The notes under the pieces were generated by a model. That model was given only the letters and a program-made list of their open reading frames with translations. It had not been told where the DNA came from and ran no database searches. Shown piece by piece: positions 8,701-49,369 of a stretch of 64,000 nucleotides of DNA. The position numbers and the translations under genes are program-made. Source of the stretch: a virus (Duplodnaviria; Heunggongvirae; Uroviricota; Caudoviricetes); IMG/VR virus record IMGVR_UViG_3300033463_000046, one strand, 5' to 3'. Within the stretch, counting starts at the first letter, position 1. Each line of letters starts with the position of its first letter.

Positions 8701-8731
8701 TAGTTTGATTAAATAATTTAACGTTAAAAAT

Positions 8732-10036
8732 ATGAAAGACAAGATTAAAGAGTTTAGAGACAAAAATCCTATATTGGATTTTGCAGCAGGCTTTATCCCA
8801 GGTGTGGGAGAAGCACAAGATGCTCATGATTTTGTACATGCTGCTAAAAAGAAAGACTTTGGAGGAATGGCATTAGCTTCTTTAGGTTTTATTATTCCAG
8901 GTGTAACTGGAGGACAATTCTTGAAGATACTTAGACCACTAACAAAAACATAGTGGGGAGCTTGGGCTGCTAAACATTTAGATGAGTTGTCTACTGTTAG
9001 ACCAAGACTTGCTGAAGGTGTTGCAAAAAATGAACCAGAAGCTGTAAAGATACATAAGACATTAGAAAAAATAGCTGATGGCAAAGTATATATTCCAGAA
9101 AAACGTGGCATTGTTAAAGATATTGACCCAGATACTCCTATTTTACCATTTGTAGATTAGAGAGGATATAACCTTACTCCTGAAGCTAGAGTAAATGCAG
9201 CTTTAGATTACGCTATAAGTACTGAAAAAGGGCGTGCTGTTCCTGGAATAATGGGAGGAGCAAAGGGAGTGCAAGGTGTAGAAGAATTAATACCAGGATT
9301 CCCAGCTTTTAAGAAAATAAATAATGTTAAAACTAGAATGGGACAATTCACTGGTGCTGACATTATTACTGCATTGTATTATAGTGGTCATGGTAAGATA
9401 AGATCTAGTAATGCTATATATGATGCTATTATGAAAGCTCCAGTATCTGGAAATGCTAAAGAATACGCCAAAGCTTAGTTAGAAGTTGTAGAAGGAATAC
9501 TATAGAAATACAGTAAAAACACTGATAAAGTTGGAGTGTTTAAAGCTACTAAATTAGCTAAGAAAGGTAGAGATAATGTTTCAGAAACAGAAAGAGCACA
9601 TTCATATGGTCTAATTCCAGATGAATTAGTTAATCCTAAAACTGATCAAGCTGTTAAAGATAGAATACATTTGGAAGAATCTTTAAACAATTTGAGTATA
9701 TGGTTTGGTTCTAAAAATGGTAATGGTGTTGCAGAATTTTATGGTCCTATTCCAATGAATTTATATTCTGGAAGTTATGGAGGAAAGAAATTTGGAGGTA
9801 GTGGTGATCATAAATTATTTGGATTTAATAATTCTATATTAGTAAAGAATTAGGATGATCTTGCAATACATATTGCTAATTCTAAAGATAAAACTATGGG
9901 ATTGGTAACTGATATTTAGGATGGTGCTGGTGTGACAAATGACGTAATATTCTAGCCATATAGGTATAGTTTAATAAGACAAAAGAAAGGTGGTCGGATT
10001 TGCCTAACTACTTCGAAGAAGCGAGGACCGTTTTAA
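8732..10036 (+). CDS. hypothetical protein carrying 8 in-frame TAG codons (amber read-through gene)
   Basis: Track ORFs 8732-8953, 9251-9478 and 9536-9853 are collinear in one frame, separated only by TAG triplets. The frame runs to TAA at 10034-10036 (1302 nt = 434 codons from 8732). The C-terminal 60 codons are less certain. Confidence 0.5.
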
Positions 10037-10110: not shown

Positions 10111-10692
10111 GTGCATTTTAAAACTCTCATTATGCAAATAGTAATTAAAAACAAAAAGTGTTCAATTGACAAAATCAAGAGAGAATATCCTGATTGCGTC
10201 ATTATTGATGTAACGAGTAAAGCTAAGGATGAGTTCAGAAAGCTTAGTCCTTTTTATCCTCATTGCAGTATTCCTGTTAATCCTATTTCTGAACAATTTT
10301 TATTTGGAGCGTCAGTAGAAGGAATTTGGCAAGGTTTGAAAGTATTTGAAGATGAAGGGCCAAGTCTATCTAGTCTTCATAATTCTTCAATGCGTGGATT
10401 AAAGAGAACAACTCGTGTACATGGTCGTTGCTTGGGACATGCTTATGGCGACATAATTGGCAAGAAATATACTTTACTTGGTTACGTAGAAGCTCGTAAG
10501 AAATTGTATGTTCCAGCCTATAAATGGGTGTTAGAGAATAAATGTGCTGATTTAGTTAATAAGATTCGTATCATAGCTCAACATAAGACAGTGATACTTC
10601 TTGATTATAATACTAATGAAGACATTGAAAATGGTAATAAACCGTTATCTCACGCTGCATTAATTAAAAAATATATTAATAAAGAAATTTAA
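10111..10692 (+). CDS. hypothetical protein
   Basis: 193-aa ORF in track. Confidence 0.55.
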   Translation: MHFKTLIMQIVIKNKKCSIDKIKREYPDCVIIDVTSKAKDEFRKLSPFYPHCSIPVNPISEQFLFGASVEGIWQGLKVFEDEGPSLSSLHNSSMRGLKRTTRVHGRCLGHAYGDIIGKKYTLLGYVEARKKLYVPAYKWVLENKCADLVNKIRIIAQHKTVILLDYNTNEDIENGNKPLSHAALIKKYINKEI

Positions 10693-15532: not shown

Positions 15533-15960
15533 CTATAATTTATGATGTATGATACGTAGAATTACAGAAGTTCGAGAAACTACTATTTATGTCGGAGACA
15601 AGCTGATAGTAGTGAAAGAAGAAGTCCACACAATTAGGATTCTTCCAGACACACCCGAGGATTAGCTGCATCTTCCTCGTTAAAATCGCGATGTAGCCGC
15701 AGAGATCCGGCACTGGTGTTAAGCGTCCGGTCATTCTTCGACCAGAATTTTCTTTTGAAATAAAGAAGCTGGCAGAGCTCAAAAGAGTGAATGCCTCTAG
15801 GATGGTAACCTGGAGGCTTTTTCTTTGAAAGTCTGATTTTGCTCATAATAGGTTGGAAAAGTTGAGAATTATCTATAATATCGCATGATATATCAATAGA
15901 TAATTTCTCAACTATTCCGGATTCATGTTGAGAACTAAATTAATTAAACGTTTAATTATT

Positions 15961-17190
15961 ATGAATGAAATTTAGAAATTTAAGCAAGGAAGAAAAGTAC
16001 TTTCTGCTAAATTCGGTGACAATTTTAAAAGAGTTGGCACAGCAAGTAATGGTTTATCTGGTATATATTTCAATCCTGACGATAATCAATTATGGAAAGG
16101 TGGATTAACTGGATATAGTAGAATAGGAGATACATATAGTTATTATTCAGGATTAGGAGGAGGTGTTATTAAAGCTTCTGACTACATTGAAAAGCCTAAG
16201 ACAGGAGTTACTACAAGAACTTCTAGTAATCCAGGTGAAATAGTAGTTAATGGTAAAAGATACGCCTCGAAAGCTGATTGGGTAAAAGAACAAAGAGCAC
16301 AAAGAGAACAACAACCATAGGAAGTAGTAATAACTGGTAGGGCTGGTAAAAGATCTGCTTCTAAAGTCACACCAAGAGGTCAGGGATATTGGGATAAACA
16401 ATACCAAGATTTCTTAGGTAAGATGACTGACGATTAGAAAGCGTGGTTAGCATAGAGAGGTATTGATTATAATTCTGCTCAACAAATGCAAACTTATTTA
16501 GCTAATCATGGTCAAGATCTTGGTAAATGGGGTGCTGATGGTAAATGGGCAGGTGCTTCCCAAGCAGCTTGGGATAATTTCGTTGCAACAACAATGAAGA
16601 ATAATCCTTTACAAACTCCTGTAAGAGATCCACAACCTACAGTTGAACCAGTAGTTGATGCTGCAGACCCATTCGGATATAAGACATCTAATCATTATGG
16701 TGATGGCTTTGCTTTAAAGAATATGGGATTCAGTAATTATGCTGGATTACAAAAATTTGCTATGGGTGATGATCAATTTGCTAAAGACTTACGTGAAAGA
16801 TTTGGTCAAGATGTAAGTCAGTGGGATCAAGCAGCTGTAGAAGGCGCATTGAATGTAAGTGGTCGTTATCGTGGTGGTAGAAGTGGCGACTTTGGTGATA
16901 TGGCTCGTAGTATGCAAGATTGGGCTGCTAAGAAAAATGCTGCATATGATCAAAAAGAATTAGCTTCTAGAACTGGTGCAAGTGGTACAACATATTCTTC
17001 TCCAGAAATGATGAAGAAATTTGAGAGTATTAAAATATCCCCAGAAGTTAAATATGGTTAGAGTACTAAGTTTGATTTTAGTAATATGAAGTTTAATTCT
17101 GGATTTGGTAATACTGGCACTAATACTCTTGGAGATGCTGGGGCAGGTACTATGAACAATCAAAAACAATTAGCATATGCGGATAAGTAA
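15961..17190 (+). CDS. peptidoglycan-binding-domain protein with in-frame TAG codons (recoded)
   Basis: One frame from ATG 15961 through track ORF 16486-17061 to TAA at 17188. In-frame TAG at codon 5 and four more. Motif MQTYLANHGQDLGKWGADGKWAGASQAAWDNFV resembles PG_binding_1. Confidence 0.5.
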
Positions 17191-18235
17191 ATTACAATAC
17201 GGAAATTCACTTTTGGAGGCAAGTAATCGACAAAGAGGAAAAGTTCAAGCTTGGGGTAATAGAGGTATTCAGCAAGTTGGTATGCAAGCTAAACAAGCTG
17301 AAGAAGAAGTTATTCAATATAAAAAAGCTACTGCTCGTGCTAATAAGAAGACAAAGACTCCTATGTAGTCAAATAACTTGGCTAAACTTCAAGACCAATT
17401 ATGGAGAATTGGAGCATTCAAAGGAGTTAAAGATAGAAGAGGAAATGAATCTACATACTAGACTGCTGTTGATGGTATCAAAGGTAATATGACCAATACT
17501 GCTATTGCTAATGCTCAGAAAATGGGTTTCACTATTAACAATGATGGTAGTCTTAGTAAGACATCTGATACATCATCAAAAGTCACAAGTACTGCTAAAA
17601 CACCAGAATAGTCTTCTAAAAAGACTAGATTTATGACATCTAGTGGTCCAATGATGCCTGCTCAAGTAATGGCACAAGCTTCAGAAGCTATTGCTAATAA
17701 CAAGACACTACAAAATACTGCAGACTTCTTAGGACATAATCCTGCTGCTATGGCTTTAGAAGATTTAGATAGAGCTACTTCAAACCGTTTAGCTGAATCA
17801 TTATTTGGTATAAGACCTTTCAAAGGTAGAACTGTTACTCGTTTACCTAATCTATAGACTGAGGAATTAAAGAAATAGGTTTTATTTGCTAGAAGTAAAG
17901 GTTAGAATAACTTTAATTCTGATATGTATAAAGCTATGTATGGTTATAATTATGCGTCTCGTAATGGAAAAGGTGGACAAGATAGAAGTGGATTTTGGAA
18001 TAGAATGGATACTCCTACGGGACGTCTTGAGCATACATTAGGTGCTTATGGTTTTTATGTAGATAATAATGGTGACACAATAGTTGAGGATACATACGAT
18101 TTTAATGTTGGACAAAAATAGGGAGGAGATGGAAGATATGCTGTAACCCGTAATTTCTTAGGAGAATTCGGAAGCAAATCTACTGATCCTAACGAGGGTA
18201 AAATCAAATATAGGATTAATTTAGGTAAATTATGA
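17177..18235 (+). CDS. peptidoglycan-binding-domain protein with multiple in-frame TAG codons (recoded)
   Basis: Track ORFs 17177-17368, 17633-17857 and 17924-18121 share one frame and are separated only by TAGs; the frame ends at TGA 18233-18235. LQDQLWRIGAFKG...DGIKGNMTNTAIANAQKMGF is PG_binding_1-like. Confidence 0.5.
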
Positions 18236-24596: not shown

Positions 24597-24811
24597 CAGT
24601 CAATGCGGTTAATGTAATACTTGAAAAGGCCTGGGAGATGAAGTCTCAGGCCTTAATATTTACAGACAAATTGTTTGCTATTTGGCCAAAAGACTATGAT
24701 TGGAAGGTATATGACAATTTGAAAATATTATGTATATTTGACAAAACCTCTAAAGCAGAATCATATTTGGATACAGATAGTATCAGAAAAATTGTAATAA
24801 AAGATGAGTAA
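24593..24811 (+). CDS. hypothetical small protein
   Basis: 72 aa; ATGA overlap with the upstream gene. Confidence 0.45.
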   Translation: MTVNAVNVILEKAWEMKSQALIFTDKLFAIWPKDYDWKVYDNLKILCIFDKTSKAESYLDTDSIRKIVIKDE

Positions 24812-26012
24812 CATTCATTGGTTAAAAACCAACAACACTTTTCGAAAGGTTGAAGGAGATTTCAGTACCATTGACTCAGTTCCAGTAGGTATTTATAATA
24901 TTGGATTGAGTATGACAGGTTGGTATCTGGAAAAGTACGCAGACAAATTCACTTTCGATTACAAAATGTACGGATTACAGACAGAGTTCTGTAAGCACGT
25001 ACTGAAGACTTATCACAACACTATTGGTAACTTTGGTATTATGTTAACTGGTACTAAAGGAACTGGTAAAACTGTAACAGCTAAAACTTTAGCAAATGAT
25101 TTTAATCTTCCAGTAATTATTGTCAAGGATATGGGAGATTCTAATCAAAGCATGATTGAGTTCCTGAGTGGATTCAATTTTGATTGTGTTTTATTCCTTG
25201 ACGAGTTTGAGAAGAATTTCTCTGATAAAGATTCTACTATCTTACAAATAATGGATGGTGTCTACAACATTGGTTATCGCAAGATATTCTTGTTAACAAC
25301 TAATGAGATGACAGTAAATGAGAATCTTATTGGTAGACCATCTCGTATTCGTTATGTAAAGAGATTCGGAAACTTGGACATCAAGACTGTTGAAGATTAT
25401 CTTAATGATGAACTTCAAGTTCCAGAGGCTCGTCAAGAGCTTATTGATTTCATTGATACCTTAACTATATCTACTATAGATATTCTTAAGACTATTGTCA
25501 ATGAGGTTAATATCCATGGAATGGCTGGTCTTCTTAAGGCTAAGGAATTCTTTAATGTTAGCACTCTTGAGTTTAACTATTCATGTGTTCGTGGATATGT
25601 TGAGGAAGGAGAAATGATGAATGAGCCTGACAAATATAACATGAAGAATTTCTTAAAGGATGTTGAGAAGTATGAGAATCCTATTTGGGAACCTGGTTTC
25701 TATCGTAGTACTCCGAAGGAACAGTGGACACAATCTCAACAGAAGGAATTTGATGAATGGCAAGAGAATCGTAGAAAGACCTTCAATGGTGTTCAACGTA
25801 TGAATTGTCATGCTAACTGTCGTTTTAACCATCTTAAGGTTGGAGGAGAATTTGATGGAGAAGAAATTGTGATTATTGATATTAAGAAGAATGTTGTTGT
25901 AACTCGTTATGATGACTACTTCTATTGGTATTACATTTCTAATCCTGCTAAGAAACCTTCATTATATGGTGGAGGATCAAGTGAAGACTTTGTAAGATTC
26001 TTAGACTATTAA
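24804..26012 (+). CDS. AAA+ family ATPase
   Basis: Walker A GIMLTGTKGTGKT and Walker B VLFLDEFEK. Confidence 0.7.
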   Translation: MSNIHWLKTNNTFRKVEGDFSTIDSVPVGIYNIGLSMTGWYLEKYADKFTFDYKMYGLQTEFCKHVLKTYHNTIGNFGIMLTGTKGTGKTVTAKTLANDFNLPVIIVKDMGDSNQSMIEFLSGFNFDCVLFLDEFEKNFSDKDSTILQIMDGVYNIGYRKIFLLTTNEMTVNENLIGRPSRIRYVKRFGNLDIKTVEDYLNDELQVPEARQELIDFIDTLTISTIDILKTIVNEVNIHGMAGLLKAKEFFNVSTLEFNYSCVRGYVEEGEMMNEPDKYNMKNFLKDVEKYENPIWEPGFYRSTPKEQWTQSQQKEFDEWQENRRKTFNGVQRMNCHANCRFNHLKVGGEFDGEEIVIIDIKKNVVVTRYDDYFYWYYISNPAKKPSLYGGGSSEDFVRFLDY

Positions 26013-27511: not shown

Positions 27512-28600
27512 ATGACATTACAAGAAGAGAACGAAAAACTTAGAGAAAAACTAAGTGAGTATGAAGATTTACTGCTAAAAATGATGGAAGGACCGTATTC
27601 AAGTGGTACGATCATTTCAAAAACTGCTCTTAGTATGTATAGAGTAGCAACAGATGCAGGCACAGAAGTAATTATTACTGCACATCCTGAGATTAAAAGG
27701 AGTGACCTCAAAGAAGGGTGCAGAGTAATTATTAACACTAAGATGATTACAAATGTTCTTCCTGTAGAATTAGAAAAGACACCAGAAGAAGTTAAATTTG
27801 ATTTTATTGATTGGAGTCAAATTGCTGGTGTTAGGTCGCAGGTTGAACGAATTAAAGAAGCTGTCAATGCTCCATTACTATTCGGAAAGTATTACAAAGA
27901 ATATGGATTATCTCCATGTAAAGGTATTCTTTTGTATGGACCTCCGGGTTGTGGTAAAACTCTTATTGCAAGAGCAATTGCTACTAACTTCTTAAGAGGT
28001 AAGAACATTACTAAAGATTCTTTCATTTATATGAAAGGAGGAGAAATGTTAAGTCCATATGTAGGTGTTGCTGAAAATAATATTAAATCAGTGTTTACAA
28101 GGGCGAGACGTAATTTTGAGAAGAGTGGTAATAAGTCTGTTATCTTTATTGATGAAGCTGAAGCATTATTACCTGCAAGAGGTTCACGCAGAAGTTCAGA
28201 TGTAGAGACAACAATTGTTCCAACTTTCCTTTCTGAGATGGATGGATTTGAAGACAGCAGTACCTTTGTTATACTAGCAACTAATTACCCAGGACAAATT
28301 GATCCAGCTGTAATAAGACCAGGTAGAATTGATCTCCGAATAGAGATTGGTAGGCCTAATGTCGAGGATGCAGAAGAAATATTTGATCTTTATTTAAATA
28401 AAACCAAATGTGGAACTAACAAGTTAGCTCAGATGGCTGCTAAAAGACTATTTAAGTCTGATGTGGCTAAGAATGTATCAGGAGCACTTATTAAGAATGT
28501 TGTGGATAGAGCCACATTATCAGCAGTTAAACGTGCTGTAAATGGTGACAATAGTGGAGTAAACGAGAAAGACATAATCGTAGCAATAGAAGAGTTATGA
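27512..28600 (+). CDS. AAA ATPase (classical AAA domain, CDC48/FtsH-like)
   Basis: GILLYGPPGCGKTLIARAIA, Walker B VIFIDEAEAL, second region ATNYPGQIDPAVIRPGRIDLRIEIGRPN. Confidence 0.8.
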   Translation: MTLQEENEKLREKLSEYEDLLLKMMEGPYSSGTIISKTALSMYRVATDAGTEVIITAHPEIKRSDLKEGCRVIINTKMITNVLPVELEKTPEEVKFDFIDWSQIAGVRSQVERIKEAVNAPLLFGKYYKEYGLSPCKGILLYGPPGCGKTLIARAIATNFLRGKNITKDSFIYMKGGEMLSPYVGVAENNIKSVFTRARRNFEKSGNKSVIFIDEAEALLPARGSRRSSDVETTIVPTFLSEMDGFEDSSTFVILATNYPGQIDPAVIRPGRIDLRIEIGRPNVEDAEEIFDLYLNKTKCGTNKLAQMAAKRLFKSDVAKNVSGALIKNVVDRATLSAVKRAVNGDNSGVNEKDIIVAIEEL

Positions 28601-31016: not shown

Positions 31017-32990
31017 ATGACATTGACAACAATGATTATCGCGGCAGTTATTGTACTGCTTGTGATTTTAACAATTATCGGACTCTTGTCTCGTTATCGC
31101 AAGTGTCCAAGTGACCAACTCTTAGTTGTGTTTGGTAAAGTGGGTGGAAAATCTGCTGCCAAGATATATCCTGGAGGTGGTGTGTTTGTATGGCCTGTCA
31201 TTCAGGACTACAAAGTTATGTCGATGAAACCATTTCAGATTAACTCGGAAGTAGTTGGTCCTGATAGTGGTATGATTCAGACTCATGTGAAGGTAGCTTT
31301 AACTACTGCAATCTCTCAAGATCCCACTATTCAGCAAAATGCTGCTGCTCGTTTCTTAAGTGCTGACAAACAAGAAATTCAGAAACAGATTCAAACCATT
31401 CTTGAAGGTGAAGTAAGATTAATTATTGCTTCATTGTCAATTGAGGAGATTAACTCCAATCGAGATGCCTTTAAGACTAAGGTTAAAGATAGTCTTGGTA
31501 CTGAACTTGCTAAGGTTGGTTATGATATAACTAATATTAACATTCAGGAAATCACTGATGAACAAGACTACATTAAAAATCTATCTAAGAAGAAGGAAAC
31601 GGAGGCAAGAGCTAATGCTGAGGCTGATATTGCTGACAAGGAAAAAGATGGAGCTATTAGAAAAGCTAAGATTAGACAAGAGCAGGAAATCCAAGTAGCA
31701 ACTGCTGATAAGGAAAGAGAGACTACAGTTTCTCAAACTAAGCAGGAGCAGGCTGTAAGAGTAGCAGAAATTGAGAAAGAACAGGAAACTCAGATTGCCG
31801 AAACTCAGAAGGCAAAGGAAGTACAGCTTTCCGAAATTGAGAAGGAGAAGCAGACTGGTATCGCTAACCAGAAGGCTCTTCAGACTGCTGCTGTAGCAAA
31901 TGCTGATGCAGATGCTGAATCTAAGAAAGCAGAGGCTGATGCTCGTAAGGTTGCAGCTGTTGCTGAACAGAAGGCAAAGGCTGAATCTTCTAAGGCAGAA
32001 TCTGAAGCAACTCAGCGTAAAGCTGTAGCCGCTGCTCAGGCAGATGCTGAAGCTACTGAGAACGAGAAGGAAGCTTTAAAGCAGACTCGTATTGCTGAAG
32101 CTAATCAGAAGAAGGAAGCTGATATTGCTAAGGCAACTCAGGAGAAGGAAGCAAAGAAAGCTGAGTATGAGTCACAGAAGCAGATTCGTAAGGCTAAGGC
32201 TGACCAGGATGCAGGTGTAGCTGAGCAGAATGCAAAGATTCTTGTTGCTGAGGCTCGTGCGAAGGCTGGTCAGGCAGAAGCTGATGCTGACAAGACTGTC
32301 CAGGTTGCTAAGATTGAAGCTGATATGAAGGCTGCTAAGACTAAGCAAGAACGTCAGTTAGAGGTTAACGAGGCTGAAGCCAAGGCAGTTGAAGCTAAGT
32401 TAAATGCTGAGCAGGTTGTTCCAGCCGAGCAGTCTAAGAAGAAGACTATCATCGAAGCAGAAGCTATTAAAGAGAAGGCAATTCTCGAAGCTGAAGCAGA
32501 GAAACAGCGTATTCTTAAGAAGGCTGAAGCCGATTCTGAGGAAATCAAACTGAAGAAGTTAGCAGAAGCTGAGGGTACAAAGCAGATTAAGCTGGCTGAA
32601 GCTGAGGGTCAGAAGGCTCTGTGGTTTGCAGAGGCAGAGGCTCTTCAGAAGAAGGAAATGGCTCCTGCACTTGCTCTGGAGAAGATGGTACAGTCATTCG
32701 GTGGTAACCCAGATCTTCTTGTTCAATACAAGATGGTTGACCAGTATAAGGGTATTGCTGAAGCTTCTGAGAAGATGCTTGAGCATATTCAGCTTGGTAA
32801 TGTCACTGTTTATGGTGACGCTACAACTGGTGCGAAGTTTGCTAAGAGCTTTATTGAGATGTTCACTCCTGGTCTTGACATCGTTCAGAATGGTTTCAAA
32901 GACAAGTTTAAGGAAGTGTTCGGTCTTGATAAGAAGTCTGAAGAACTTCCCGAAGAGAAAACTGACGAAAACTTCGAGGAGGTTAAGTAA
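31017..32990 (+). CDS. flotillin-like SPFH/band-7 protein with long E/A/K coiled-coil
   Basis: 657 aa. N-terminal TM IIAAVIVLLVILTIIGLL, SPFH block LLVVFGKVGG...GPDSGMIQTHVKVALT, then about 300 aa of EA-rich heptad repeats. Confidence 0.75.
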   Translation: MTLTTMIIAAVIVLLVILTIIGLLSRYRKCPSDQLLVVFGKVGGKSAAKIYPGGGVFVWPVIQDYKVMSMKPFQINSEVVGPDSGMIQTHVKVALTTAISQDPTIQQNAAARFLSADKQEIQKQIQTILEGEVRLIIASLSIEEINSNRDAFKTKVKDSLGTELAKVGYDITNINIQEITDEQDYIKNLSKKKETEARANAEADIADKEKDGAIRKAKIRQEQEIQVATADKERETTVSQTKQEQAVRVAEIEKEQETQIAETQKAKEVQLSEIEKEKQTGIANQKALQTAAVANADADAESKKAEADARKVAAVAEQKAKAESSKAESEATQRKAVAAAQADAEATENEKEALKQTRIAEANQKKEADIAKATQEKEAKKAEYESQKQIRKAKADQDAGVAEQNAKILVAEARAKAGQAEADADKTVQVAKIEADMKAAKTKQERQLEVNEAEAKAVEAKLNAEQVVPAEQSKKKTIIEAEAIKEKAILEAEAEKQRILKKAEADSEEIKLKKLAEAEGTKQIKLAEAEGQKALWFAEAEALQKKEMAPALALEKMVQSFGGNPDLLVQYKMVDQYKGIAEASEKMLEHIQLGNVTVYGDATTGAKFAKSFIEMFTPGLDIVQNGFKDKFKEVFGLDKKSEELPEEKTDENFEEVK

Positions 32991-35865: not shown

Positions 35866-36102
35866 ATGGAGGTAAATAATCGAATTGTAGAAATTCTTAA
35901 AGACAAATTGATGGTTGATGAAATCAGCTCTGATGATAATTTAATAATTGATCTGAAAGCAGATAGTCTTGACATAATCGAGTTAGTCATGGAATTAGAA
36001 CATGAATTTGATATTGTTATCTTAGACGAAGAAGTAGATCCTAACTTTGATAGTGTAGGTCATTTAATAGATTTCATACAAACCAAAGTAAATAACAAAT
36101 AA
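35866..36102 (+). CDS. acpP: acyl carrier protein
   Basis: 78 aa, acidic, with motif DLKADSLDIIELVMELEHEFDIVILDEE containing the phosphopantetheine-attachment DSL. Confidence 0.75.
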   Translation: MEVNNRIVEILKDKLMVDEISSDDNLIIDLKADSLDIIELVMELEHEFDIVILDEEVDPNFDSVGHLIDFIQTKVNNK

Positions 36103-36209
36103 TGGAAAATATAATTAATATTAACGAACCTTGTATTCAAGATCTTATAATCCAGAAAGGAGAATAGGATTTATGTCTTACGACAAAAGATGGTCAAATT
36201 GAGTATAAA

Positions 36210-38168
36210 TTGTTTTTAGGTGACAAAGATTCGGTGATGTTAACTCTCAACTTTGGAGATGTCTCCAGTATAGGTTGGGGTGGTACAGATAACTGGGGTA
36301 AAGATAAGCTTCCTCTATACTTAGAAAGTAATAAAGGTGCTGAGAATTATGACAGTGTATTTGTTGATAATATCACTATTCAGGAGTATGCCGGAGAAGG
36401 AAATTGGTGTAAATGCGAACTTATAAATAAAGGTAAAACGGTTCATTACGTGGCTGTAAACGAAAATCGATTGGATAAGGAACGCGTAGCATATTTCTGG
36501 CATACTACTACTGACTCTGTAGTTAATAATGGATTTAATAAAGGAAAACCAGTTGCAAAGAAATGGTGTGTGACTGTTATTCAAAATCCAGGAAAAGCAC
36601 AAGAATAGCCAAAAGAAGAAGAAAAGAAAGTTGATCTCGGAAAATATCTTTATTCAGTAGGATTATTATCGGATTTACATATTTGTAAAGCTAATAATAA
36701 TGATTCGTTAAACTGGTGGGATGAAGATGACTTTAAGAGAGCAATGAATTTATATGTAAATGATAAAAATATTAAGTTTATTGCATCTTGTGGTGATATT
36801 TCCGAAGCACAAACTAATGATAATATTAAACACCCAGAATCAACAGCAGAAACTGATTATGCTGAGTTTACAGAAATGTATGATGTACCTTATTGGCAAG
36901 TAGCAGGATTAAGATTCTTTAGTCCATTAGGTAATCATGATTTCTATGGAATGTTTGAAGGTAGACAAGGAGACACAATAACTAAAAAGAAAAACTCAGA
37001 AACTATAAACGGTTACAATGCTGGAGTAAAAGAACGTATAGGTAATTGGATTACAGGACAACAAATAAATGGAATTGTTCCAGGTAGAGGAAGAATTCAA
37101 TTTGAACTTGAGAATGGTAAGAGTACTGCAAATGGTCAAGCAGATATGAGATTCTTCTCATATAACGATTATGTAGACTTGTACGCAAAAGAAAATGGTT
37201 ATACAGGTTCAATATGGGATTCTTCTAAAGGTGGAATATCTGACAAAGCAATCGAAACTGCAAAGAAATATGTCAATAGTAATTGGAATAAAGTAAAAGA
37301 CAATTTAACTATGTGGAATGATGGCGGAGGTCACGGTCGTAATGGTTATTCTAAATTAAACTATTGGATGAAAAAAGACAATGATATTTACATATTCTTA
37401 TCAGTAGATTATGGCGATGATATATGGGGCATTAAAAGTGGTTGGCATGATAGAATGATTCATGCAAGAACTATTATTAATCTTAATGAAGATGATCCAT
37501 ATGTCAAGAGAATGAAAGAGTATGTTGGAGATACTGGTTATTCAAAAGCTGATGAAGCTTATAACTATCAGTATTATAGTCCTAACACTCTTATATGGTT
37601 GAAGGAACTTCTTGAGAATAATAAGGATAAGAAGATTTACATCTTCACTCATCACTTTATGCCTAATCGTGTTGGTAATGGTGTTGGACTTGCTAAAGAT
37701 GGAAATTGGTATTACTCTGTAATCAATCCTGATGGAGTAAAAGAGAATGGTTATAATAAGGGATCTAATGCATTAACTGGTATTGAGTTCTGGTTTATTG
37801 ATAAGCTTATGAATCAATATAATAATGTGATATGGTTCAGTGGTCATTCTCATATAAGTTTTGCATCTGGTGCTAACTTTGATAATCATGATTACTCTAT
37901 AGTAAATCCATCTGAGAAAAGTGAATATGTATATACTAAGAGTAATACAATTCCAACTAAAGAATCAGCATGGTGTGTAGCACTTCCATCACTTTCTAAA
38001 CCAAGAGGTATTGATAATGGTCAATCAGTAAGACATTATGAAGATGCTGAAATGGGTATTATGGAAGTATATGAGAAAGGTGTTAAGATAAAAGGATATA
38101 AAATCCGAGAAAATAACAAAGATGTCAACGAGTTACTTGTTGAAAAAGAAATTCAATTAATCAATTAA
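36210..38168 (+). CDS. calcineurin-like metallophosphoesterase with N-terminal extension; one in-frame TAG (recoded)
   Basis: Track ORFs 36210-36608 and 36744-38168 are in the same frame (534 nt apart), joined through TAG 36606-36608. The connecting segment encodes GLLSDLHI (motif I). Downstream: GNHDF and GHSH motifs. Confidence 0.6.
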
Positions 38169-38943: not shown

Positions 38944-39015
38944 GATCGTATAGCTCAATGATAGAGCAGCGGTCCTCAAAACCGAAGGTTTAGGGTTTGA
39001 ATCCCTATACGATCA
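38944..39015 (+). tRNA. tRNA with anticodon loop ccTCAaa (anticodon UCA, reads UGA/UGG); candidate opal suppressor or Trp-UCA
   Basis: Acceptor gatcgta/tacgatc, D gctc-aatgata-gagc, anticodon stem cggt/accg (4 bp), T-arm taggg-tttgaat-cccta. Position 33 is C. Confidence 0.6.
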
Positions 39016-39094
39016 CTCCCCACTGTGAAGTGGCATCTCCTTTCATTAAAAACAAATGTCACTAAATTTCTCGGGACTCAGAGGAGTCCCACTT

Positions 39095-41153: not shown

Positions 41154-41225
41154 GCCCCTATGGCAGAAGGGTTTATGCACCAGACTCTTAATCTGGCTAT
41201 CAAGGTTCGAGTCCTTGTGGGGGTA
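41154..41225 (+). tRNA. tRNA-Lys (CTT)
   Basis: Acceptor gccccta/tgggggt (2 GU), anticodon arm ccaga-ctCTTaa-tctgg, T-arm caagg-ttcgagt-ccttg. Confidence 0.7.
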
Positions 41226-41245
41226 CAATAAAAAATTTTAAAGAT

Positions 41246-41482: not shown

Positions 41483-42550
41483 ATGATGTACAGAGTAATT
41501 ACAATTGTTTACACTAGGCGAAAACTGTCAGCATTAGAAATAGCTGAACAGAAGAAGTACCTATTTATTTGTGACTATGAAGTAAAGATTGGAGATATGT
41601 TAGATTCTCCTGTCTACGCTACTCCATGTCAGGTTGTGGATGTTACTTGGAAGAGTTCTAAACCAATGAACCCTCGAGGGCAATATCTAAAAACTCTCAT
41701 TGTAGAAAGAATTAACGGTAAATCAGTAAATGATGAACCAGAAGTTATTAATCCATCTAAAAGTAAAGAAATGAAGGACAATTCAATGTTCAGTGGAATT
41801 ATGTCTAAGTATTCTGGACAATTCATTCCACAAAAGGAAGACAAAGTGCGTATGTCACTTAATGGTCTATTGTGTGTTCCTCAGGATGGAGAGTATGTTG
41901 GTGTAAATGGAGAAGAGCTTGTATCTTTCCCACCAGAAATGACTCTTCAGATTCCTGTGTATTCTATTATTAAAGCTAACTCAGCTGTAGTTCCTGGAGA
42001 CATTATCAAGAATGGTAACAACTATTCTAAGGTAATTGGAATTAATCCTGATGGAAGCTTAAAGATCTTGTCGTTTACCGGTTTCACTCACAATAAGAAG
42101 CCTGTTACAGACTTCATTATGGGTGCTGCTACTACTCGTGTGCTTATCAATATGTTTAACTTCGATGAGAAGTCTGGATTCAATCCTATCTTCTTTGCTA
42201 TGGCAAGTGGAGAATCTATCGATGTTAACTCATTGATGATGCTTTCTATGACTCCTCAGGGTAAGAACCTCTTCAGCAATGCTGGTGGTGGTTTCAATCC
42301 TGCTATGTTATGGATGCTTGATAAGAACCGTCAAGAGAATGGTGGTGGAATGGACATGATGTCAATGTTTATGATGTCCTCTATGATGGGCGGACAGAAT
42401 CCATTTGGTAACATGTTTGGAGCAGCTCCTCAACCAGCTCCTCAGCCAGCAACTAAACCAGCTGAGCCATCTGCAGATGAAGCCTTGAATATTATTCTCA
42501 AGGATCCTGATGCTTTAGCTAAATTAAAGGACGCATTAAAAGCTGAGTAA
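41483..42550 (+). CDS. hypothetical protein with Met/Gly-rich low-complexity C-terminus
   Basis: 355-aa ORF. Confidence 0.6.
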   Translation: MMYRVITIVYTRRKLSALEIAEQKKYLFICDYEVKIGDMLDSPVYATPCQVVDVTWKSSKPMNPRGQYLKTLIVERINGKSVNDEPEVINPSKSKEMKDNSMFSGIMSKYSGQFIPQKEDKVRMSLNGLLCVPQDGEYVGVNGEELVSFPPEMTLQIPVYSIIKANSAVVPGDIIKNGNNYSKVIGINPDGSLKILSFTGFTHNKKPVTDFIMGAATTRVLINMFNFDEKSGFNPIFFAMASGESIDVNSLMMLSMTPQGKNLFSNAGGGFNPAMLWMLDKNRQENGGGMDMMSMFMMSSMMGGQNPFGNMFGAAPQPAPQPATKPAEPSADEALNIILKDPDALAKLKDALKAE

Positions 42551-42551
42551 T

Positions 42552-43367
42552 ATGGGTGGTGGTAGTTACGATCCGATAGCGTCTCGTAGTAGATCTACGA
42601 CGTATTATCAAAATAGGTCTCGAGAAGAAGTATTCTCTCAGCGTCATATGGATCCTTTAATGAATCCGAAGGGTGTAGCATATCGTGAAGCCCGTGACTC
42701 TGAAGAACATCCAGAATCGTTCCCAATTATTATTGCTCTCGATGAGACTGGTAGTATGGGACGTATTCCCGAAATTATTATCAAGAAGATTCTTCCTGAC
42801 ATTATGGAATCCATAATGAATGCAGGAGTTAAGGATCCTCAAGTAATGTTTATGGGAATTGGAGACTGTGCTAACTATGAAGAGGCTCCTCTTCAAGTTG
42901 GTCAGTTTGAAAGTTCCGACGAACTTATAGAAAAGTGGCTTACTAAAGTCTACTTGGAACATAAGGGAGGCGGAAACGGTTTCGAGTCCTATCCTCTAGC
43001 ATGGTATTTTGCTGCTCACCATATCGTTACAGATTCGTGGGAAAAGAGACAGCAGAAAGGTGTTCTTATCACTATTGGTGATGAGAGTTATCAGCAACGT
43101 CTCTTAGCAGAACAGATTACACGCTATATTGGCGACACCCCCGAAGTCGATATAGTTGCGTCTGAACTGCTTGAACGTGTTCGTGAACAGTGGAATGTAT
43201 TCCATATCCATTGTAATGGTGGCAGCTACCGTGCTTCTGAAACTAAATGGGAGAAACTCCTCGGTCCAAATCTCGTTGTCTCCGTAGATAATGATGGTAT
43301 GGATATTAAGGATATTATCCCTCGTATTGTAGTTGGTTGTTATCGTAAACCAGAAGATGATGCGTAA
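42552..43367 (+). CDS. von Willebrand factor A (vWA) domain protein
   Basis: MIDAS-like IIIALDETGSMG (D-x-S-x-S) followed by a Rossmann-like fold pattern. Confidence 0.65.
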   Translation: MGGGSYDPIASRSRSTTYYQNRSREEVFSQRHMDPLMNPKGVAYREARDSEEHPESFPIIIALDETGSMGRIPEIIIKKILPDIMESIMNAGVKDPQVMFMGIGDCANYEEAPLQVGQFESSDELIEKWLTKVYLEHKGGGNGFESYPLAWYFAAHHIVTDSWEKRQQKGVLITIGDESYQQRLLAEQITRYIGDTPEVDIVASELLERVREQWNVFHIHCNGGSYRASETKWEKLLGPNLVVSVDNDGMDIKDIIPRIVVGCYRKPEDDA

Positions 43368-44487
43368 AACTCAAATAGTACTGGGAGCCCTTTTCGGAGA
43401 CGAAGGAAAGGGTTCCACAGTACAGTTTCTTTGTAAAGAACAATTAAGAAAAGGAATTACACCTTTAGTTATAAGGTTTAGTGGAGGACCACAAGCAGGA
43501 CATCGTGTAATGTATAATGGTATTGATCACGTATGTTCTCTTTTAGGTTCAGGTGTTCTATTGGGCTGTCCTACATATCTTGATAAAGATGTTATGATTG
43601 ATCCAATTTCTCTAATGAAAGAAGTGCAATCTCTTCAACAATTCGGAATAAACCCAGACATATACGTTCATCCATATTGCCGAGTTATTTTCCCTGATGA
43701 TATTATAAAGAATCAGAGTAATAAAAAGACAATACAGGATGGTACTTGTGGTTGTGGCATATTTGAATGTTTTGATAGAAATCGTAAAAATCCAGATATA
43801 CTTAGATGTATTGCTAGTGCAACTGTAGCTCCTGAGGATTATGTAGATCTTTATGGAGTTAAACACAATAGAGAGCAGTTTATTGAAGCGTGTAAATGGA
43901 TGGATAACTATTGTCATATTCGTATGCTAGAAGAATTGGCAGAGATGCATAGTTCTCTAATATTTGAAGGAAGTCAAGGATTATTACTTGATATGGAAGG
44001 TGGTTTTATGCCTAATTGTACTCCTAGTATGGTTGGCTTAAATGGAGTAAGAGAAGAATTTCTTGAAAATGCTGAAGTTTTCTTAGTAATGAGAAGTTAT
44101 CTTACTCGACATGGTAATGGTTATGATCCTGTTGGTGAATCATTTGTACGAAAGTATTTTACAAACTTAGAAGAACCTACAAATTTGAATGATGGTCCAC
44201 AAGGACAATTCAAACTTGGTGTCCTTGATTTAGATCTAGTAATTCGCTCTTTTGACCGAAATCGTTTGGACAATTATAAAAGAATGTATAATATTGAATA
44301 CAACGCAGTGATAACACACATGGATTGTAGTCCATATCCGACTATTATTCCTGCATTCTTCAATTATAGTAAAATTGATTATATTGATATTGATAAAGCA
44401 ATGCAATATTGTTTTAGGCACATATCTCTTAAAAATACTTACTTAGGACTAGGTCCTGAGTCTGAAATCGTCCTCTTCAATAGATAA
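43357..44487 (+). CDS. adenylosuccinate synthetase family protein (PurA/PurZ-like)
   Basis: LGALFGDEGKGSTVQF (PurA P-loop GDEGKGK-like), FSGGPQAGHRV (GG-N-AGH block), FEGSQGLLLDMEGG (FEGAQG block). Starts at ATG 43357, overlapping the vWA stop. Confidence 0.65.
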   Translation: MMRKTQIVLGALFGDEGKGSTVQFLCKEQLRKGITPLVIRFSGGPQAGHRVMYNGIDHVCSLLGSGVLLGCPTYLDKDVMIDPISLMKEVQSLQQFGINPDIYVHPYCRVIFPDDIIKNQSNKKTIQDGTCGCGIFECFDRNRKNPDILRCIASATVAPEDYVDLYGVKHNREQFIEACKWMDNYCHIRMLEELAEMHSSLIFEGSQGLLLDMEGGFMPNCTPSMVGLNGVREEFLENAEVFLVMRSYLTRHGNGYDPVGESFVRKYFTNLEEPTNLNDGPQGQFKLGVLDLDLVIRSFDRNRLDNYKRMYNIEYNAVITHMDCSPYPTIIPAFFNYSKIDYIDIDKAMQYCFRHISLKNTYLGLGPESEIVLFNR

Positions 44488-44658: not shown

Positions 44659-44732
44659 GCTCCCATAGACGAATTGGTCAAGTCGTCACACTCTCAATGT
44701 GGAGATTCCGAGTTCGATCCTCGGTGGGAGTA
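44659..44732 (+). tRNA. tRNA-Glu (CTC), probable
   Basis: Acceptor gctccca/tgggagt, 3-bp D-stem with long loop, anticodon arm tcaca-ctCTCaa-tgtgg, T-arm ccgag-ttcgatc-ctcgg. Confidence 0.6.
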
Positions 44733-44826
44733 CAAAGTCCGAAGAAATTCGGCCAACCAGTCGGGATCCCCAGAGGTGGTAGTTATCTGTGCACGGAAGG
44801 ACGCCATCGTGTTGGCTGGTTGAGAT

Positions 44827-48787: not shown

Positions 48788-49369
48788 GGTCTTCCTATTA
48801 AATGGGGCTGACAGGATTAGACGGATAATGAAGGTAATAAGAACATGCAAAGGCTGTATGGAAAGACATACAAATCAATTAAATGGCAAGAACAATGTTT
48901 CTTTCGCCATCACAAGCTACAGAGTAGCTGCGTGAGGCGTGGGGTCGTGATTAACCCTATCATCCAATAATCACAAAGTCTACGATTCTCAGTGTCTCCG
49001 ACTATAAACACAGCAACTGAGTGGTGGCAGGTGCGACTTCGGTCAATCCCCCAGTCATTGCCTAAGACTTTAAAAAAGGCACTGGTGAAGAAAACACTCC
49101 AAATTGAAAAGCATGTACAATTCTTATAGAATAGTTGTTGCGGACGGCGGTTCGATTCCGCCCAGTTCCACTCCTGTGATCTGACGGAGCATGCGGTCAC
49201 TAAAAGGCATGCGTCAATTCTCACTTAGACTCAAGAAGTGATAGGTTGTACAACTGAAGGGAATGAATTTTTTGCAGGTAAGGAAACCGCCATCTCAAGT
49301 TTTCTAATCTATAAATCATAAAACTAGAGAAAAGGGTAAGTAGGTGTACGGGACACCTACGTAAATATA

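What the first reader, a model, noticed from the sequence alone, without database searches (positions are those of the whole stretch)
43357..44487. Phage-encoded adenylosuccinate-synthetase homolog: PurA or PurZ (2-aminoadenine pathway)?
The protein carries PurA-family blocks (GDEGKG P-loop, GG..AGH, FEGSQG). Phage PurA homologs are frequently PurZ, the first enzyme of dZTP (2-aminoadenine) genome synthesis. PurZ is usually accompanied by MazZ and DatZ, which are not visible in this window. The gene is translationally coupled to a vWA-domain gene.
Basis: partly seen in the sequence, partly recalled or inferred. Interest (0 to 1): 0.6.

Follow-up and report, generated by a model that had tools for sequence, protein, structure and literature searches.

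The report
Third PurA-like clade, paired with vWA
The gene is neither the normal adenine-pathway enzyme PurA nor the 2-aminoadenine enzyme PurZ; it belongs to a third, unstudied branch of that enzyme family that almost always sits behind a vWA-domain gene, in a three-gene cassette shared by large phages and many bacteria.

Summary
ORF 43357-44487 (+, 376 aa) is a PurA-superfamily protein (Pfam PF00709, 9.4e-29). It overlaps by 11 nt the stop of a gene whose product models as a vWA/MIDAS domain.

The PurZ reading is refuted.
- All 49 family members checked keep the PurA catalytic Asp. PurZ always has Ser there.
- The PurZ model scores 41.5 bits against a cutoff of 300.
- The family forms its own clade (100/100 bootstrap).
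- No relative of phiVC8 DatZ, p24, p26 or DpoZ is in the window.

It is not an orthodox PurA either.
- PurA equivalog models score about 89 bits against a cutoff of about 400.
- The aspartate-binding loop TTGRxRR is replaced by N..QGxF[KR].
- Asn38, Thr129 and Val273 become invariant Gln, Cys and His.

The gene is the last of a conserved cassette: partner protein, then MIDAS-vWA, then PurA-like.
- The pair is adjacent in 34 of 36 and 73 of 80 viral loci, and in 79 of 80 bacterial loci.
- The first gene is either a Met-rich protein (as here) or a ~116-aa helical protein, never both.

No Pfam model (vWA and partner proteins), no PADLOC model and no paper found covers it. My best guess is a GTP-dependent purine-nucleotide ligase that uses an amine other than aspartate, with the vWA protein as an obligatory partner. 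RefSeq records label relatives as PurZ-type, which is misleading.

The parts
43357..44487 (+). PurA-like enzyme (376 aa), a member of a third PurA-superfamily clade. It keeps the P-loop GDEGKG with Asp15, His49, Gln207, Thr222 and Asp323, which correspond to E. coli Asp13, His41, Gln224, Thr239 and Asp333. The aspartate loop is remodelled to EEPTNLNDGPQGQFK.
   Evidence: Pfam PF00709 at 9.4e-29. AF2 pLDDT 92.5. Foldseek best hits are PurA structures, 4m9d at 1e-18 with TM 0.71. Residue map over 49 members. NCBIfam scores are below the cutoffs of both PurA and PurZ models.
42552..43367 (+). vWA/MIDAS-domain partner protein (271 aa). It has a conserved N-terminal peptide M-G-x-[GST]-x-[YWF]-[SDN] and the MIDAS motif DxTGS...GDE. 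Its stop overlaps the PurA-like start by 11 nt.
   Evidence: phrog_2971, unknown function, 4e-46. AF2 pLDDT 93. Foldseek matches to integrin beta I, vWF A3 and NorD vWA. Invariant residues. N-terminal motif in 138 of 150 cluster representatives. Homologues lie directly upstream of the PurA-like gene in Vibrio phage Va1, Rhizobium phage TM30 and Mycobacterium phage Pleione (BLASTP 9e-60, 6e-55, 2e-40).
41483..42550 (+). Met-rich partner protein (355 aa), the first gene of the cassette. Its stop TAA lies 1 nt before the vWA ATG. The C-terminal half is Met/Gly/Asn/Phe-rich (e.g. MDMMSMFMMSSMMGGQNPFGNMFG).
   Evidence: Present directly upstream of vWA in 27 of 36 IMG/VR loci. A profile links it to TM30 gp016 (6.8e-7) and to an unannotated ORF of Va1 (1e-3). 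Alignment A5. No Pfam, PHROG or PADLOC hit.
41154..41226 (+). tRNA-Lys(CTT), the upstream boundary of the three-gene block. It is context, not part of the cassette.
   Evidence: ARAGORN.
44659..44733 (+). tRNA-Glu(CTC), the downstream boundary of the three-gene block. It is context, not part of the cassette.
   Evidence: ARAGORN.

Best explanation
The ORF encodes the enzymatic subunit of a conserved, so far uncharacterised three-gene cassette: partner protein, MIDAS-vWA protein, PurA-like enzyme. It belongs to a third clade of the adenylosuccinate-synthetase superfamily, distinct from PurA and from PurZ/PurZ0.

Shown here: clade separation, obligate gene pairing in phages and in bacteria, retention of the phosphotransfer residues, and loss of the aspartate site.

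Inferred mechanism: the enzyme still binds GTP (guanine-specifying Asp kept). It still phosphorylates the 6-oxo group of a purine nucleotide that lacks a 2-amino group, such as IMP or dIMP (Asp13, Lys16, His41, Gln224 and Thr239 equivalents are invariant). It then displaces the phosphate with an amine that is not L-aspartate, because the carboxylate-binding Thr/Arg loop has been replaced by an invariant N..QG.F[KR] loop and Val273 by His.

The vWA protein is translationally coupled and almost never separated from the enzyme. I infer that it is an obligatory partner that presents, positions or gates the second substrate through its MIDAS site or its conserved N-terminal peptide. The variable first gene (Met-rich or small helical protein) would be an adaptor or regulator.

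The cassette occurs as a self-contained unit with unrelated flanks in bacteria, twice next to known defence genes, and also in large lytic phages. Its biological role is therefore most likely in phage-host or phage-phage conflict, or in nucleotide-pool manipulation, and not in housekeeping AMP synthesis or Z-DNA synthesis.
For: Classification:
- PF00709 at 100.8 bits.
- NCBIfam PurA equivalogs score 82-89 bits against cutoffs of 395-402. The PurZ model scores 41.5 against 300. The control sequences, E. coli PurA and phiVC8 PurZ, pass their own models.
- In an NJ tree the family and PurZ each form a split with 100/100 bootstrap.
- The fold is closest to true PurA.

Residues, over 49 diverse members:
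- Asp13 49/49, and Lys16, His41, Gln224 and Thr239 invariant.
- Asp333 kept in 46/49.
- Asn38 to Gln in 48/49, Thr129 to Cys in 43/49, Val273 to His in 49/49, Thr301 to Gln in 49/49 in that alignment (the alignment puts the invariant Asn276 at Thr301), and Arg303 deleted.
- Only one basic residue is left of the four in RRRR.
- The literature states that R303 contacts aspartate and the IMP 2'-OH, and that the Thr-rich loop tip contacts aspartate and is conserved between PurA and PurZ (PMC8342488).

Pairing:
- A vWA homologue lies directly upstream in Va1, TM30 and Pleione.
- 34 of 36 IMG/VR loci found through vWA carry the PurA-like gene.
- 73 of 80 IMG/VR loci found through the PurA-like gene carry vWA.
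- 79 of 80 bacterial genome loci carry both.
- In 61 full-length bacterial loci, only three gene clusters are shared by at least 55 loci.
- The first gene is Met-rich or small-helical and never both: 22 against 45 with 0 both, and 27 against 10.

Context:
- Flanks are heterogeneous.
- CBASS E1-E2 and a SAVED-2TM effector lie next to the cassette in Ca. Electrothrix laxa, and a BrxD-like gene lies nearby in Desulfamplus.
- In two viral loci a LAGLIDADG-type ORF interrupts the PurA-like gene after about residue 15, at the P-loop.
Against: - No biochemical data exist, and no substrate is identified.
- The retained Asp13, His41 and Lys16 would also be kept by a protein that only hydrolyses GTP.
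- The mapping of the aspartate loop depends on where the alignment gap is placed.
- The equivalent of Arg143, which binds the IMP phosphate from the other subunit, is uncertain.
- The defence-island association rests on 2 of 3 loci scanned with PADLOC. The cassette proteins themselves hit no PADLOC model.
- About 5 of 78 informative viral loci have the enzyme without an adjacent vWA gene.
- I could not inspect model coordinates or model the complex.
Confidence: 0.4

Rival explanations
1. PurZ: the enzyme condenses dGMP with aspartate as the first step of dZTP synthesis, and the phage has a 2-aminoadenine genome.
For: It is phage-encoded and in the PurA family. It matches PHROG 1211, which is annotated '2-aminooxy adenylosuccinate synthetase'. 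RefSeq records of relatives carry that name. At 376 aa its length is close to that of PurZ.
Against: - Asp, not Ser, sits at the Asp13 position in 49/49 members. Ser is found in 100% of 147 phage PurZ (PMC12884076). The S14D change in PurZ abolishes substrate selectivity (bioRxiv 10.1101/2025.10.22.683976).
- The PurZ model scores 41.5 bits against a cutoff of 300.
- The family is a separate clade at 100/100.
- The aspartate loop that PurZ conserves is lost.
- The guanine-specifying Asp is kept. phiVC8 PurZ, which uses ATP, has Asn at that column.
- The window has no relative of phiVC8 DatZ, p24, p26 or DpoZ.
- The phage records that match phiVC8 PurZ and DatZ are dominated by other genera than the 202 Mycobacterium and 10 Rhizobium records carrying this clade. 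Neither genus is among the organism names listed for the PurZ or DatZ hits.
Confidence: 0.02
2. Orthodox PurA carried as an auxiliary metabolic gene: the enzyme makes adenylosuccinate from IMP, aspartate and GTP to boost AMP and dATP supply during infection. On this view the vWA neighbour is unrelated or merely regulatory.
For: The catalytic Asp13, Lys16, His41 and Gln224 equivalents and the guanine-specifying Asp333 equivalent are retained. True PurA structures are the best fold matches. Large phages do carry nucleotide-metabolism genes.
Against: - PurA equivalog HMMs score less than a quarter of their cutoffs.
- Thr300, Thr301, Arg303 and Arg305 of the aspartate loop are lost, and Val273 becomes His in every member.
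- Asn38 and Thr129 are replaced.
- The gene is locked to a vWA gene and a third gene across phages and bacteria.
- In bacteria the cassette sits on ordinary chromosomes of free-living Flavobacteriia and others. These are expected to have their own purA (inference, not tested), so it would be a redundant paralogue.
Confidence: 0.1
3. A GTPase chaperone, not a ligase. The PurA-like protein has lost ligase function and acts as a SIMIBI-class GTPase. Together with the MIDAS-vWA adaptor it would insert a metal or cofactor, or assemble a complex, by analogy with the NTPase-vWA pairs NorQ/NorD, CoxD/CoxE and ChlI/ChlD. The Met-rich partner could carry Cu(I) or bind hydrophobic clients.
For: - vWA/MIDAS proteins typically work with an NTPase partner. 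NorD vWA is among the fold matches.
- A MoxR-vWA chaperone pair is described in jumbo phages (PMC7824862).
- Distant fold matches of the enzyme are SRP/FtsY and GPN GTPases.
- The partner is strikingly Met-rich.
- The residues kept for phosphotransfer would also be kept by a GTPase.
Against: - Gln224 and Thr239, which serve the IMP site in PurA (Thr239 binds the IMP phosphate), are invariant. Ser/Thr128 is also kept, and the pocket substitutions are themselves invariant (Gln46, His252, Gln282). That pattern suggests a changed substrate, not a lost one.
- In most loci the partner is a small helical protein that is not Met-rich.
- No client protein is conserved nearby.
Confidence: 0.15
4. The enzyme conjugates a purine nucleotide to the partner protein. 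After Met removal, the conserved N-terminal glycine of the vWA protein provides the alpha-amine that attacks the 6-phosphoryl-purine, taking the place of aspartate. The result would be a vWA protein tagged at its N-terminus with an N6-linked AMP.
For: - The N-terminus M-G-x-[GST]-x-[YWF]-[SDN] is present in 138 of 150 50%-identity cluster representatives.
- Gly2 is invariant in the diverse alignment A4.
- Residues 1-7 are unstructured in the model.
- The carboxylate-binding residues of the aspartate site are lost while the chemistry-bearing residues stay.
- The two genes are translationally coupled.
Against: This is purely inferential. A few members appear to start M-[AIS]-K-G..., so the Gly would not be N-terminal there. 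A conserved N-terminal peptide could equally be a docking motif. No fusion proteins or modelled complex support it.
Confidence: 0.1

Closest known systems
Adenylosuccinate synthetase PurA (E. coli PurA; TIGR00184 / NF002223; PDB 1cg0, 4m9d)
   Same: Same fold (Foldseek E=1e-18, TM 0.71). It shares the P-loop GDEGKG with the catalytic Asp, the AGH histidine, the FEGxQG glutamine, the Thr239 equivalent and the guanine-specifying Asp. It probably shares GTP-driven phosphorylation of a purine 6-oxo group.
   Different: About 24% identity, and about 55 residues shorter. HMM scores are 82-89 bits against cutoffs near 400. The aspartate loop TTGRxRR is replaced by N..QGxF[KR]. Asn38 becomes Gln, Thr129 Cys and Val273 His. 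The gene is always paired with a vWA gene and a third gene, which PurA never is.
PurZ / PurZ0 (succino-amino-deoxyadenylate synthase of Z-genome phages; NF038379; PDB 6fm1, 7odx, 7vf6)
   Same: Phage-borne PurA-superfamily enzyme of similar length. Both are lumped into PHROG 1211.
   Different: PurZ has Ser at the Asp13 position (P-loop GSTGKG or GSEAKG), keeps the Thr-rich aspartate loop, and travels with DatZ, MazZ, DutZ or DpoZ in phages of about 40-80 kb. This clade has Asp, lacks that loop, travels with vWA, and sits in phages of 150 kb or more and in bacterial chromosomes. Identity to phiVC8 PurZ is 18%, and it is a separate clade at 100/100.
NTPase-vWA two-component chaperones (MoxR-vWA pairs such as NorQ/NorD, CoxD/CoxE, ChlI/ChlD; the MoxR-vWA pair of jumbo phages)
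   Same: A MIDAS-bearing vWA protein encoded next to, and presumably working with, a P-loop NTPase.
   Different: The NTPase here is a PurA-type SIMIBI enzyme, not an AAA+ MoxR ATPase. No client protein is known. The enzyme keeps a nucleotide-acceptor pocket.
TerY-P defence triad (vWA TerY + PP2C phosphatase + Ser/Thr kinase)
   Same: A stand-alone vWA protein in a small mobile cassette. In Mycobacterium phage Pleione a Ser/Thr kinase gene (Pfam Pkinase) lies directly upstream of the vWA gene.
   Different: No PADLOC hit for the vWA protein. There is no phosphatase, and no kinase in the window or in most loci. The constant partner is the PurA-like enzyme.

Membership tests
PurZ (NF038379, succino-amino-deoxyadenylate synthase) | [quoted passage not shown] | tested here: not met
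   The window has GDEGKG. Asp is present in 49/49 family members. The PurZ references have GSTGKG or GSEAKG. Ser is found in 100% of 147 phage PurZ (PMC12884076).
PurZ (NF038379, succino-amino-deoxyadenylate synthase) | Scores above the curated model cutoff | tested here: not met
   41.5 bits against a cutoff of 300. The phiVC8 PurZ control scores 397.
PurZ (NF038379, succino-amino-deoxyadenylate synthase) | Falls inside the PurZ/PurZ0 clade | tested here: not met
   In the NJ tree the PurZ split and the family split each have 100/100 bootstrap. Only one PurA outgroup was available.
PurZ (NF038379, succino-amino-deoxyadenylate synthase) | Accompanied by DatZ, MazZ, DutZ or DpoZ in the genome | tested here: inconclusive
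   The 64-kb window has no relative of phiVC8 DatZ, p24, p26 or DpoZ. Neither Mycobacterium nor Rhizobium is among the organism names listed for the 94 phage records with a DatZ relative. The rest of this phage's genome was not available.
PurA (TIGR00184 / NF002223 equivalog) | Scores above the curated model cutoff | tested here: not met
   81.9 and 88.9 bits against cutoffs of 395.55 and 402. The E. coli PurA control scores 697 and 688.
PurA (TIGR00184 / NF002223 equivalog) | Catalytic and GTP residues Asp13, Lys16, His41, Gln224, Asp333 | tested here: met
   Asp13, Lys16, His41 and Gln224 are invariant in 49/49, and Asp333 is kept in 46/49.
PurA (TIGR00184 / NF002223 equivalog) | L-aspartate loop Thr300-Thr301-Gly-Arg303-x-Arg305, and Val273 | tested here: not met
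   The loop is replaced by E-x-T-N-x5-Q-G-x-F-[KR]. Arg303 is deleted, Arg305 becomes Phe in 46/49, and Val273 becomes His in 49/49.
PurA (TIGR00184 / NF002223 equivalog) | IMP 5'-phosphate ligands Asn38, Thr129, Thr239 and Arg143' | tested here: inconclusive
   Thr239 is invariant. Asn38 becomes Gln in 48/49 and Thr129 becomes Cys in 43/49. The Arg143 equivalent is uncertain: an Arg lies about 2-4 positions away in the alignment.
Adenylosuccinate-synthetase superfamily (Pfam PF00709) | Domain match above the gathering score, and the PurA fold | tested here: met
   100.8 bits against 27. The AF2 model has pLDDT 92.5, and its 42 Foldseek matches at E<=0.001 are all PurA or PurZ structures.
vWA / MIDAS domain (partner protein 42552-43367) | Rossmann-like vWA fold with the MIDAS motif DxSxS...T...D | tested here: met
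   Foldseek matches to integrin beta I, vWF A3 and NorD vWA. DxTGS and GDE are invariant, and the Thr-loop position reads GGGN. There is no Pfam or NCBIfam sequence hit.
Known anti-phage defence systems (PADLOC-DB v2) | Any cassette protein matches a defence-system model | tested here: not met
   No hits for the phage or bacterial versions of the three proteins. Only neighbouring genes hit: CBASS E1-E2, SAVED-2TM and BrxD-like.

The most novel reading that the evidence does not exclude
The cassette is a protein-nucleotide conjugation system. The PurA-like enzyme uses GTP to activate IMP or dIMP. Instead of aspartate, it attaches the purine through C6 to the invariant N-terminal glycine of its vWA partner, giving an N6-linked 'purinylated' protein. 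The tagged MIDAS protein would then act in phage-host conflict. This would be a new kind of post-translational modification, made by a repurposed purine-biosynthesis enzyme.
Probability: 0.1. Interest if true: 0.9.

Novelty: new variant of a known kind. Interest (0 to 1): 0.62.

Why it matters
There is a practical consequence and a biological one.

Practical: hundreds of phage genes fall in this clade, including those of about 200 cluster-C (Bxz1-like) mycobacteriophages, Rhizobium Kleczkowskaviridae and Vibrio Va1-like phages. RefSeq records for several of them (Pleione, TM30, Y65, Cane17 and others) label the gene '2-aminooxy adenylosuccinate synthetase', the PHROG 1211 name. That label wrongly implies 2-aminoadenine genomes. 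The Asp/Ser test at the P-loop and the vWA neighbour separate the two kinds cleanly.

Biological: a purine-biosynthesis enzyme has been recruited into a tight three-gene cassette with a MIDAS-vWA protein. The cassette is spread across large phages and several bacterial phyla: at least 352 viral stretches encode a relative of the enzyme, 419 stretches in bacterial species genomes encode a relative of the vWA partner, and the vWA family has about 1,100-1,550 clusters at 50% identity. The enzyme's chemistry-bearing residues are intact, but its aspartate site has been rebuilt. That predicts a new nucleotide-amine product, either a small molecule or a protein adduct. It also gives a well-defined target for biochemistry in culturable systems, namely M. 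smegmatis phages, Vibrio phages and Flavobacteriia.

Tried and rejected
- **Literature.** Eight full-text searches found no description of the pair. They covered PurA-like with phage, adenylosuccinate with vWA, von Willebrand, jumbo phage, Bxz1 and anti-phage, and PurA with vWA. The NAR 2026 PurZ survey leaves the non-PurA, non-PurZ phage homologues undiscussed.
- **Family libraries.** Pfam, NCBIfam, PHROGs and PADLOC gave nothing informative for the vWA, Met-rich and small helical proteins.
- **Are the two alternative first genes related?** hhalign of the Met-rich family against the small helical family gave probability 0.8%, so this was rejected.
- **Fusions as a Rosetta stone.** The top 120 PurA-like hits and the top 150 vWA representatives are all single-domain length. 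None was found.
- **MoxR-type partner.** The two AAA ATPase genes of the window (24804-26012 and 27512-28600) lie more than 13 kb upstream and are not conserved with the cassette, so they were not pursued.
- **Identifying the phage.** Megablast of 24 kb against GenBank phages gave only tRNA matches and one 71% fragment.
- **TAG read-through frames.** They had no PHROG hit and no IMG/VR relative by pattern search, so recoding rests on statistics only.
- **Sigma-70 promoter scan around the cassette.** The result was no better than shuffled sequence.
- **Not possible with these tools.** I could not obtain model coordinates or model the complex.
Full report
**1. The observation**

The + strand frame 43333..44487 contains an ATG at 43357. 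That start gives a 376-aa protein beginning MMRKTQIVLGALFGDEGKGS, and homologues begin at the same point.

Pfam PF00709 (adenylosuccinate synthetase) matches at 9.4e-29 but covers only model positions 1-273 of 416. The upstream ORF 42552..43367 ends in TAA at 43365-43367, so it overlaps the PurA-like start by 11 nt. That upstream protein has no Pfam or NCBIfam hit. Its AlphaFold model (pLDDT 93) matches integrin beta I-domains, vWF A3 and NorD vWA. It has an invariant MIDAS motif, DxTGS...GDE. The observation, including the 'vWA' call, is confirmed.

**2. The setting**

The window is phage-like.
- Nearly all ORFs are on one strand, and GC content is about 37%.
- It has 34 tRNA genes and a tmRNA gene (35 ARAGORN calls) interspersed with ORFs.
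- It encodes DnaB-like, DEAD-box and AAA_24 replication proteins, two AAA ATPases and an SPFH protein.
- No close relative exists among GenBank phages.
- Metagenomic relatives at 80-90% identity lie on contigs of about 190 kb with the same local gene order.

**3. It is not PurZ**

- The position of E. coli PurA Asp13 is Asp in 49 of 49 diverse family members. PurZ and PurZ0 references have Ser, as GSTGKG or GSEAKG. A 2026 survey found Ser in 100% of 147 phage PurZ and Asp in 99% of the PurA clade (PMC12884076). Changing Ser14 to Asp in PurZ abolishes substrate selectivity (bioRxiv 10.1101/2025.10.22.683976).
- The curated PurZ model NF038379 scores 41.5 bits against a cutoff of 300, while phiVC8 PurZ scores 397.
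- In a neighbour-joining tree the family and the PurZ group each form a split with 100/100 bootstrap. The tree used 27 family members, five PurZ/PurZ0 sequences and E. coli PurA.
- tblastn with phiVC8 DatZ, its small neighbours p24 and p26, and DpoZ finds nothing in the window (all E>0.9).
- Across GenBank phages, the records that match the window protein are Mycobacterium 202, Rhizobium 10 and Vibrio 6. These are mainly different genera from those matching phiVC8 PurZ (Arthrobacter 105, Vibrio 38, Microbacterium 18, Acinetobacter 10) or DatZ.

**4. It is not an orthodox PurA either**

PurA equivalog models score 82-89 bits against cutoffs of 395-402. The fold is clearly PurA-like: the 42 Foldseek matches at E<=0.001 are all PurA or PurZ structures, with true PurA first at E=1e-18 and TM 0.71. 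The substrate sites, however, are rebuilt in a conserved way.
- Asn38 becomes Gln (48/49).
- Thr129 becomes Cys (43/49).
- Val273 becomes His (49/49).
- The Thr-Thr-Gly-Arg-x-Arg aspartate loop is replaced by E-x-T-N-x5-Q-G-x-F-[KR]. The Asn, Gln and Gly are invariant or nearly so, Phe is present in 46/49, and only one of four basic residues remains.

In PurA, Arg303 contacts aspartate and the IMP 2'-OH. The Thr-rich loop tip contacts aspartate and is strictly conserved even between PurA and PurZ (PMC8342488).

By contrast, the phosphotransfer and purine-activation residues are invariant: Asp13, Lys16, His41, Gln224 and Thr239. The guanine-specifying Asp333 is kept in 46/49. This pattern is what one expects of an active enzyme that has changed its second substrate, and perhaps details of its nucleotide acceptor. 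It is not the pattern of a decaying copy.

**5. The gene pair and the cassette**

In Vibrio phage Va1, Rhizobium phage RHph_TM30 and Mycobacterium phage Pleione, the gene just upstream of the PurA-like gene is a homologue of the window vWA protein (BLASTP 9e-60, 6e-55, 2e-40).

| Search | Loci | Result |
|---|---|---|
| IMG/VR, starting from vWA | 36 | 34 carry the PurA-like gene downstream, nearly always adjacent |
| IMG/VR, starting from the enzyme | 80 | 73 carry vWA upstream, 2 are truncated, about 5 lack it |
| 185,579 species genomes, starting from vWA | 419 stretches, best 80 kept | 79 of 80 carry the PurA-like gene directly behind vWA |

The bacterial carriers include Flavobacteriia (Winogradskyella, Formosa, Mesonia, Maribacter, Chryseobacterium), cable bacteria, Methylococcales, an Acidimicrobiales MAG and a Leptospiraceae MAG.

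I clustered the neighbours of 61 full-length bacterial loci. Only three gene families are shared by at least 55 loci: the enzyme, the vWA protein, and a helical protein of about 116 aa directly upstream.

In the window the first position is taken instead by a 355-aa Met-rich protein (41483-42550). Its stop lies 1 nt before the vWA start. Profiles link this protein to TM30 gp016 and to an unannotated ORF in Va1 (alignment A5). The two kinds of first gene are mutually exclusive: 27 against 10 loci, and 22 against 45 with none carrying both. They are not detectably related (hhalign probability 0.8%).

The vWA family comprises 1,103-1,550 clusters at 50% identity in a 1.84-billion-protein library, and the best 150 listed are 185-378 aa long. 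Its N-terminus follows M-G-x-[GST]-x-[YWF]-[SDN] in 138 of 150 representatives.

**6. Context of the cassette**

Bacterial flanks are unrelated from taxon to taxon. They include TonB receptors, GGDEF, TPR and SUKH immunity proteins, so the cassette behaves as a self-contained, horizontally moving unit. In Ca. Electrothrix laxa it lies next to a CBASS E1-E2 gene and a SAVED-2TM effector. In Desulfamplus a BrxD-like gene is 4 kb away. None of the three cassette proteins matches any PADLOC model. In Pleione a Ser/Thr kinase gene lies just upstream. Eight literature searches found no description of the pair.

**7. Mechanism**

Shown: separate clade, obligate pairing, retained catalytic residues, and a rebuilt aspartate site.

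Inferred: a GTP-dependent enzyme phosphorylates the 6-oxo group of a purine nucleotide that lacks a 2-amino group, then couples it to an amine other than aspartate. The vWA protein would be the obligatory partner that supplies or positions that second substrate. The role would lie in conflict or nucleotide-pool manipulation.

I give this 0.4. The rivals are:
- a pure GTPase-vWA chaperone, 0.15;
- an orthodox PurA auxiliary gene, 0.10;
- conjugation of the purine to the N-terminal glycine of the vWA protein, 0.10, which is the most novel reading;
- PurZ, 0.02.

**8. Verdict**

The finding is real. Its favoured interpretation is wrong, in an instructive way. The gene marks an uncharacterised, widespread cassette built around a repurposed purine-biosynthesis enzyme. 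RefSeq records for several relatives currently carry the PurZ-type product name, as does the PHROG 1211 annotation. I rate it a new variant of a known kind, with interest 0.62.

Noticed in passing
window 8717-10036, 15904-17190, 17156-18235, 36096-38168 (+); tRNAs at 2281-2370 (-) and 38944-39016 (+): There are long + strand frames free of TAA and TGA but carrying several in-frame TAG codons: 439 codons with 7 TAG, 428 with 5, 359 with 8, and 690 with 2. At least the first falls where standard-code ORF calling finds no ORF of 110 aa or more. From the window's trinucleotide frequencies, the chance of 439 codons without TAA or TGA is about 3e-11. A suppressor-type tRNA with anticodon CTA, and another with TCA, are encoded in the window. 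This suggests amber (TAG) recoding of some genes. The three cassette genes contain no in-frame stops.
   Followed up: partly
L022:6792-8134 and L029 (IMG/VR relatives): The PurA-like gene is interrupted after about residue 15, at the P-loop, by roughly 1.3 kb. The insert carries a 191-aa ORF with two LAGLIDADG-like motifs (GFIFADG, GYFDGDG). It is probably an intron or another homing-endonuclease insertion.
   Followed up: partly
L043:6001-6826 and L012:2593-4447 (IMG/VR relatives): Two degenerate cassettes were seen. In L043 the vWA gene is frameshifted and the PurA-like gene is absent. In L012 vWA is intact, HNH-like ORFs follow it, and there is no PurA-like gene.
   Followed up: partly
window 1-64000, e.g. 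11333-52857; tmRNA 48804-49171: 34 tRNA genes and a tmRNA gene are spread among short ORFs over about 50 kb, nearly all on the + strand. The cassette is bounded by tRNA-Lys (41154-41226) and tRNA-Glu (44659-44733). Bxz1-like mycobacteriophages, which also carry the cassette, are likewise tRNA- and tmRNA-rich (PMC9476963 abstract).
   Followed up: no
L003:3553-4683 (Mycobacterium phage Pleione gp265); L002:4655-4972 (Rhizobium phage TM30 gp017): Some lineages have extra genes inserted in or next to the cassette. Pleione has a Ser/Thr protein kinase (Pfam Pkinase, 8.7e-9) directly upstream of vWA. TM30 has a HIRAN-domain protein between the Met-rich and vWA genes.
   Followed up: partly
L001:4252-4965 (Vibrio phage Va1, MK387337.2 positions 15946-16659): An unannotated 237-aa Met-rich ORF lies directly upstream of the vWA gene Va1_038. 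It is the homologue of TM30 gp016 and a probable homologue of window 41483-42550. It is missing from the GenBank annotation.
   Followed up: yes
window 10111-10692 (+): A 193-aa protein matches DUF6939 strongly (9.7e-62) and matches the DarT1-associated NADAR antitoxin family weakly (3.5e-4). It may be an ADP-ribose-processing or counter-defence gene.
   Followed up: no
window 24804-26012, 27512-28600, 31017-32990 (+): Two AAA-family ATPases (PF00004) and a 657-aa SPFH/Band 7 protein lie close together upstream of the cassette. Their function here is unknown.
   Followed up: no
L060:649-5880 (Ca. Electrothrix laxa chromosome): Type II CBASS components (an E1-E2 Cap2-like gene and a SAVED-2TM effector) lie immediately upstream of the bacterial version of the cassette.
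   Followed up: partly
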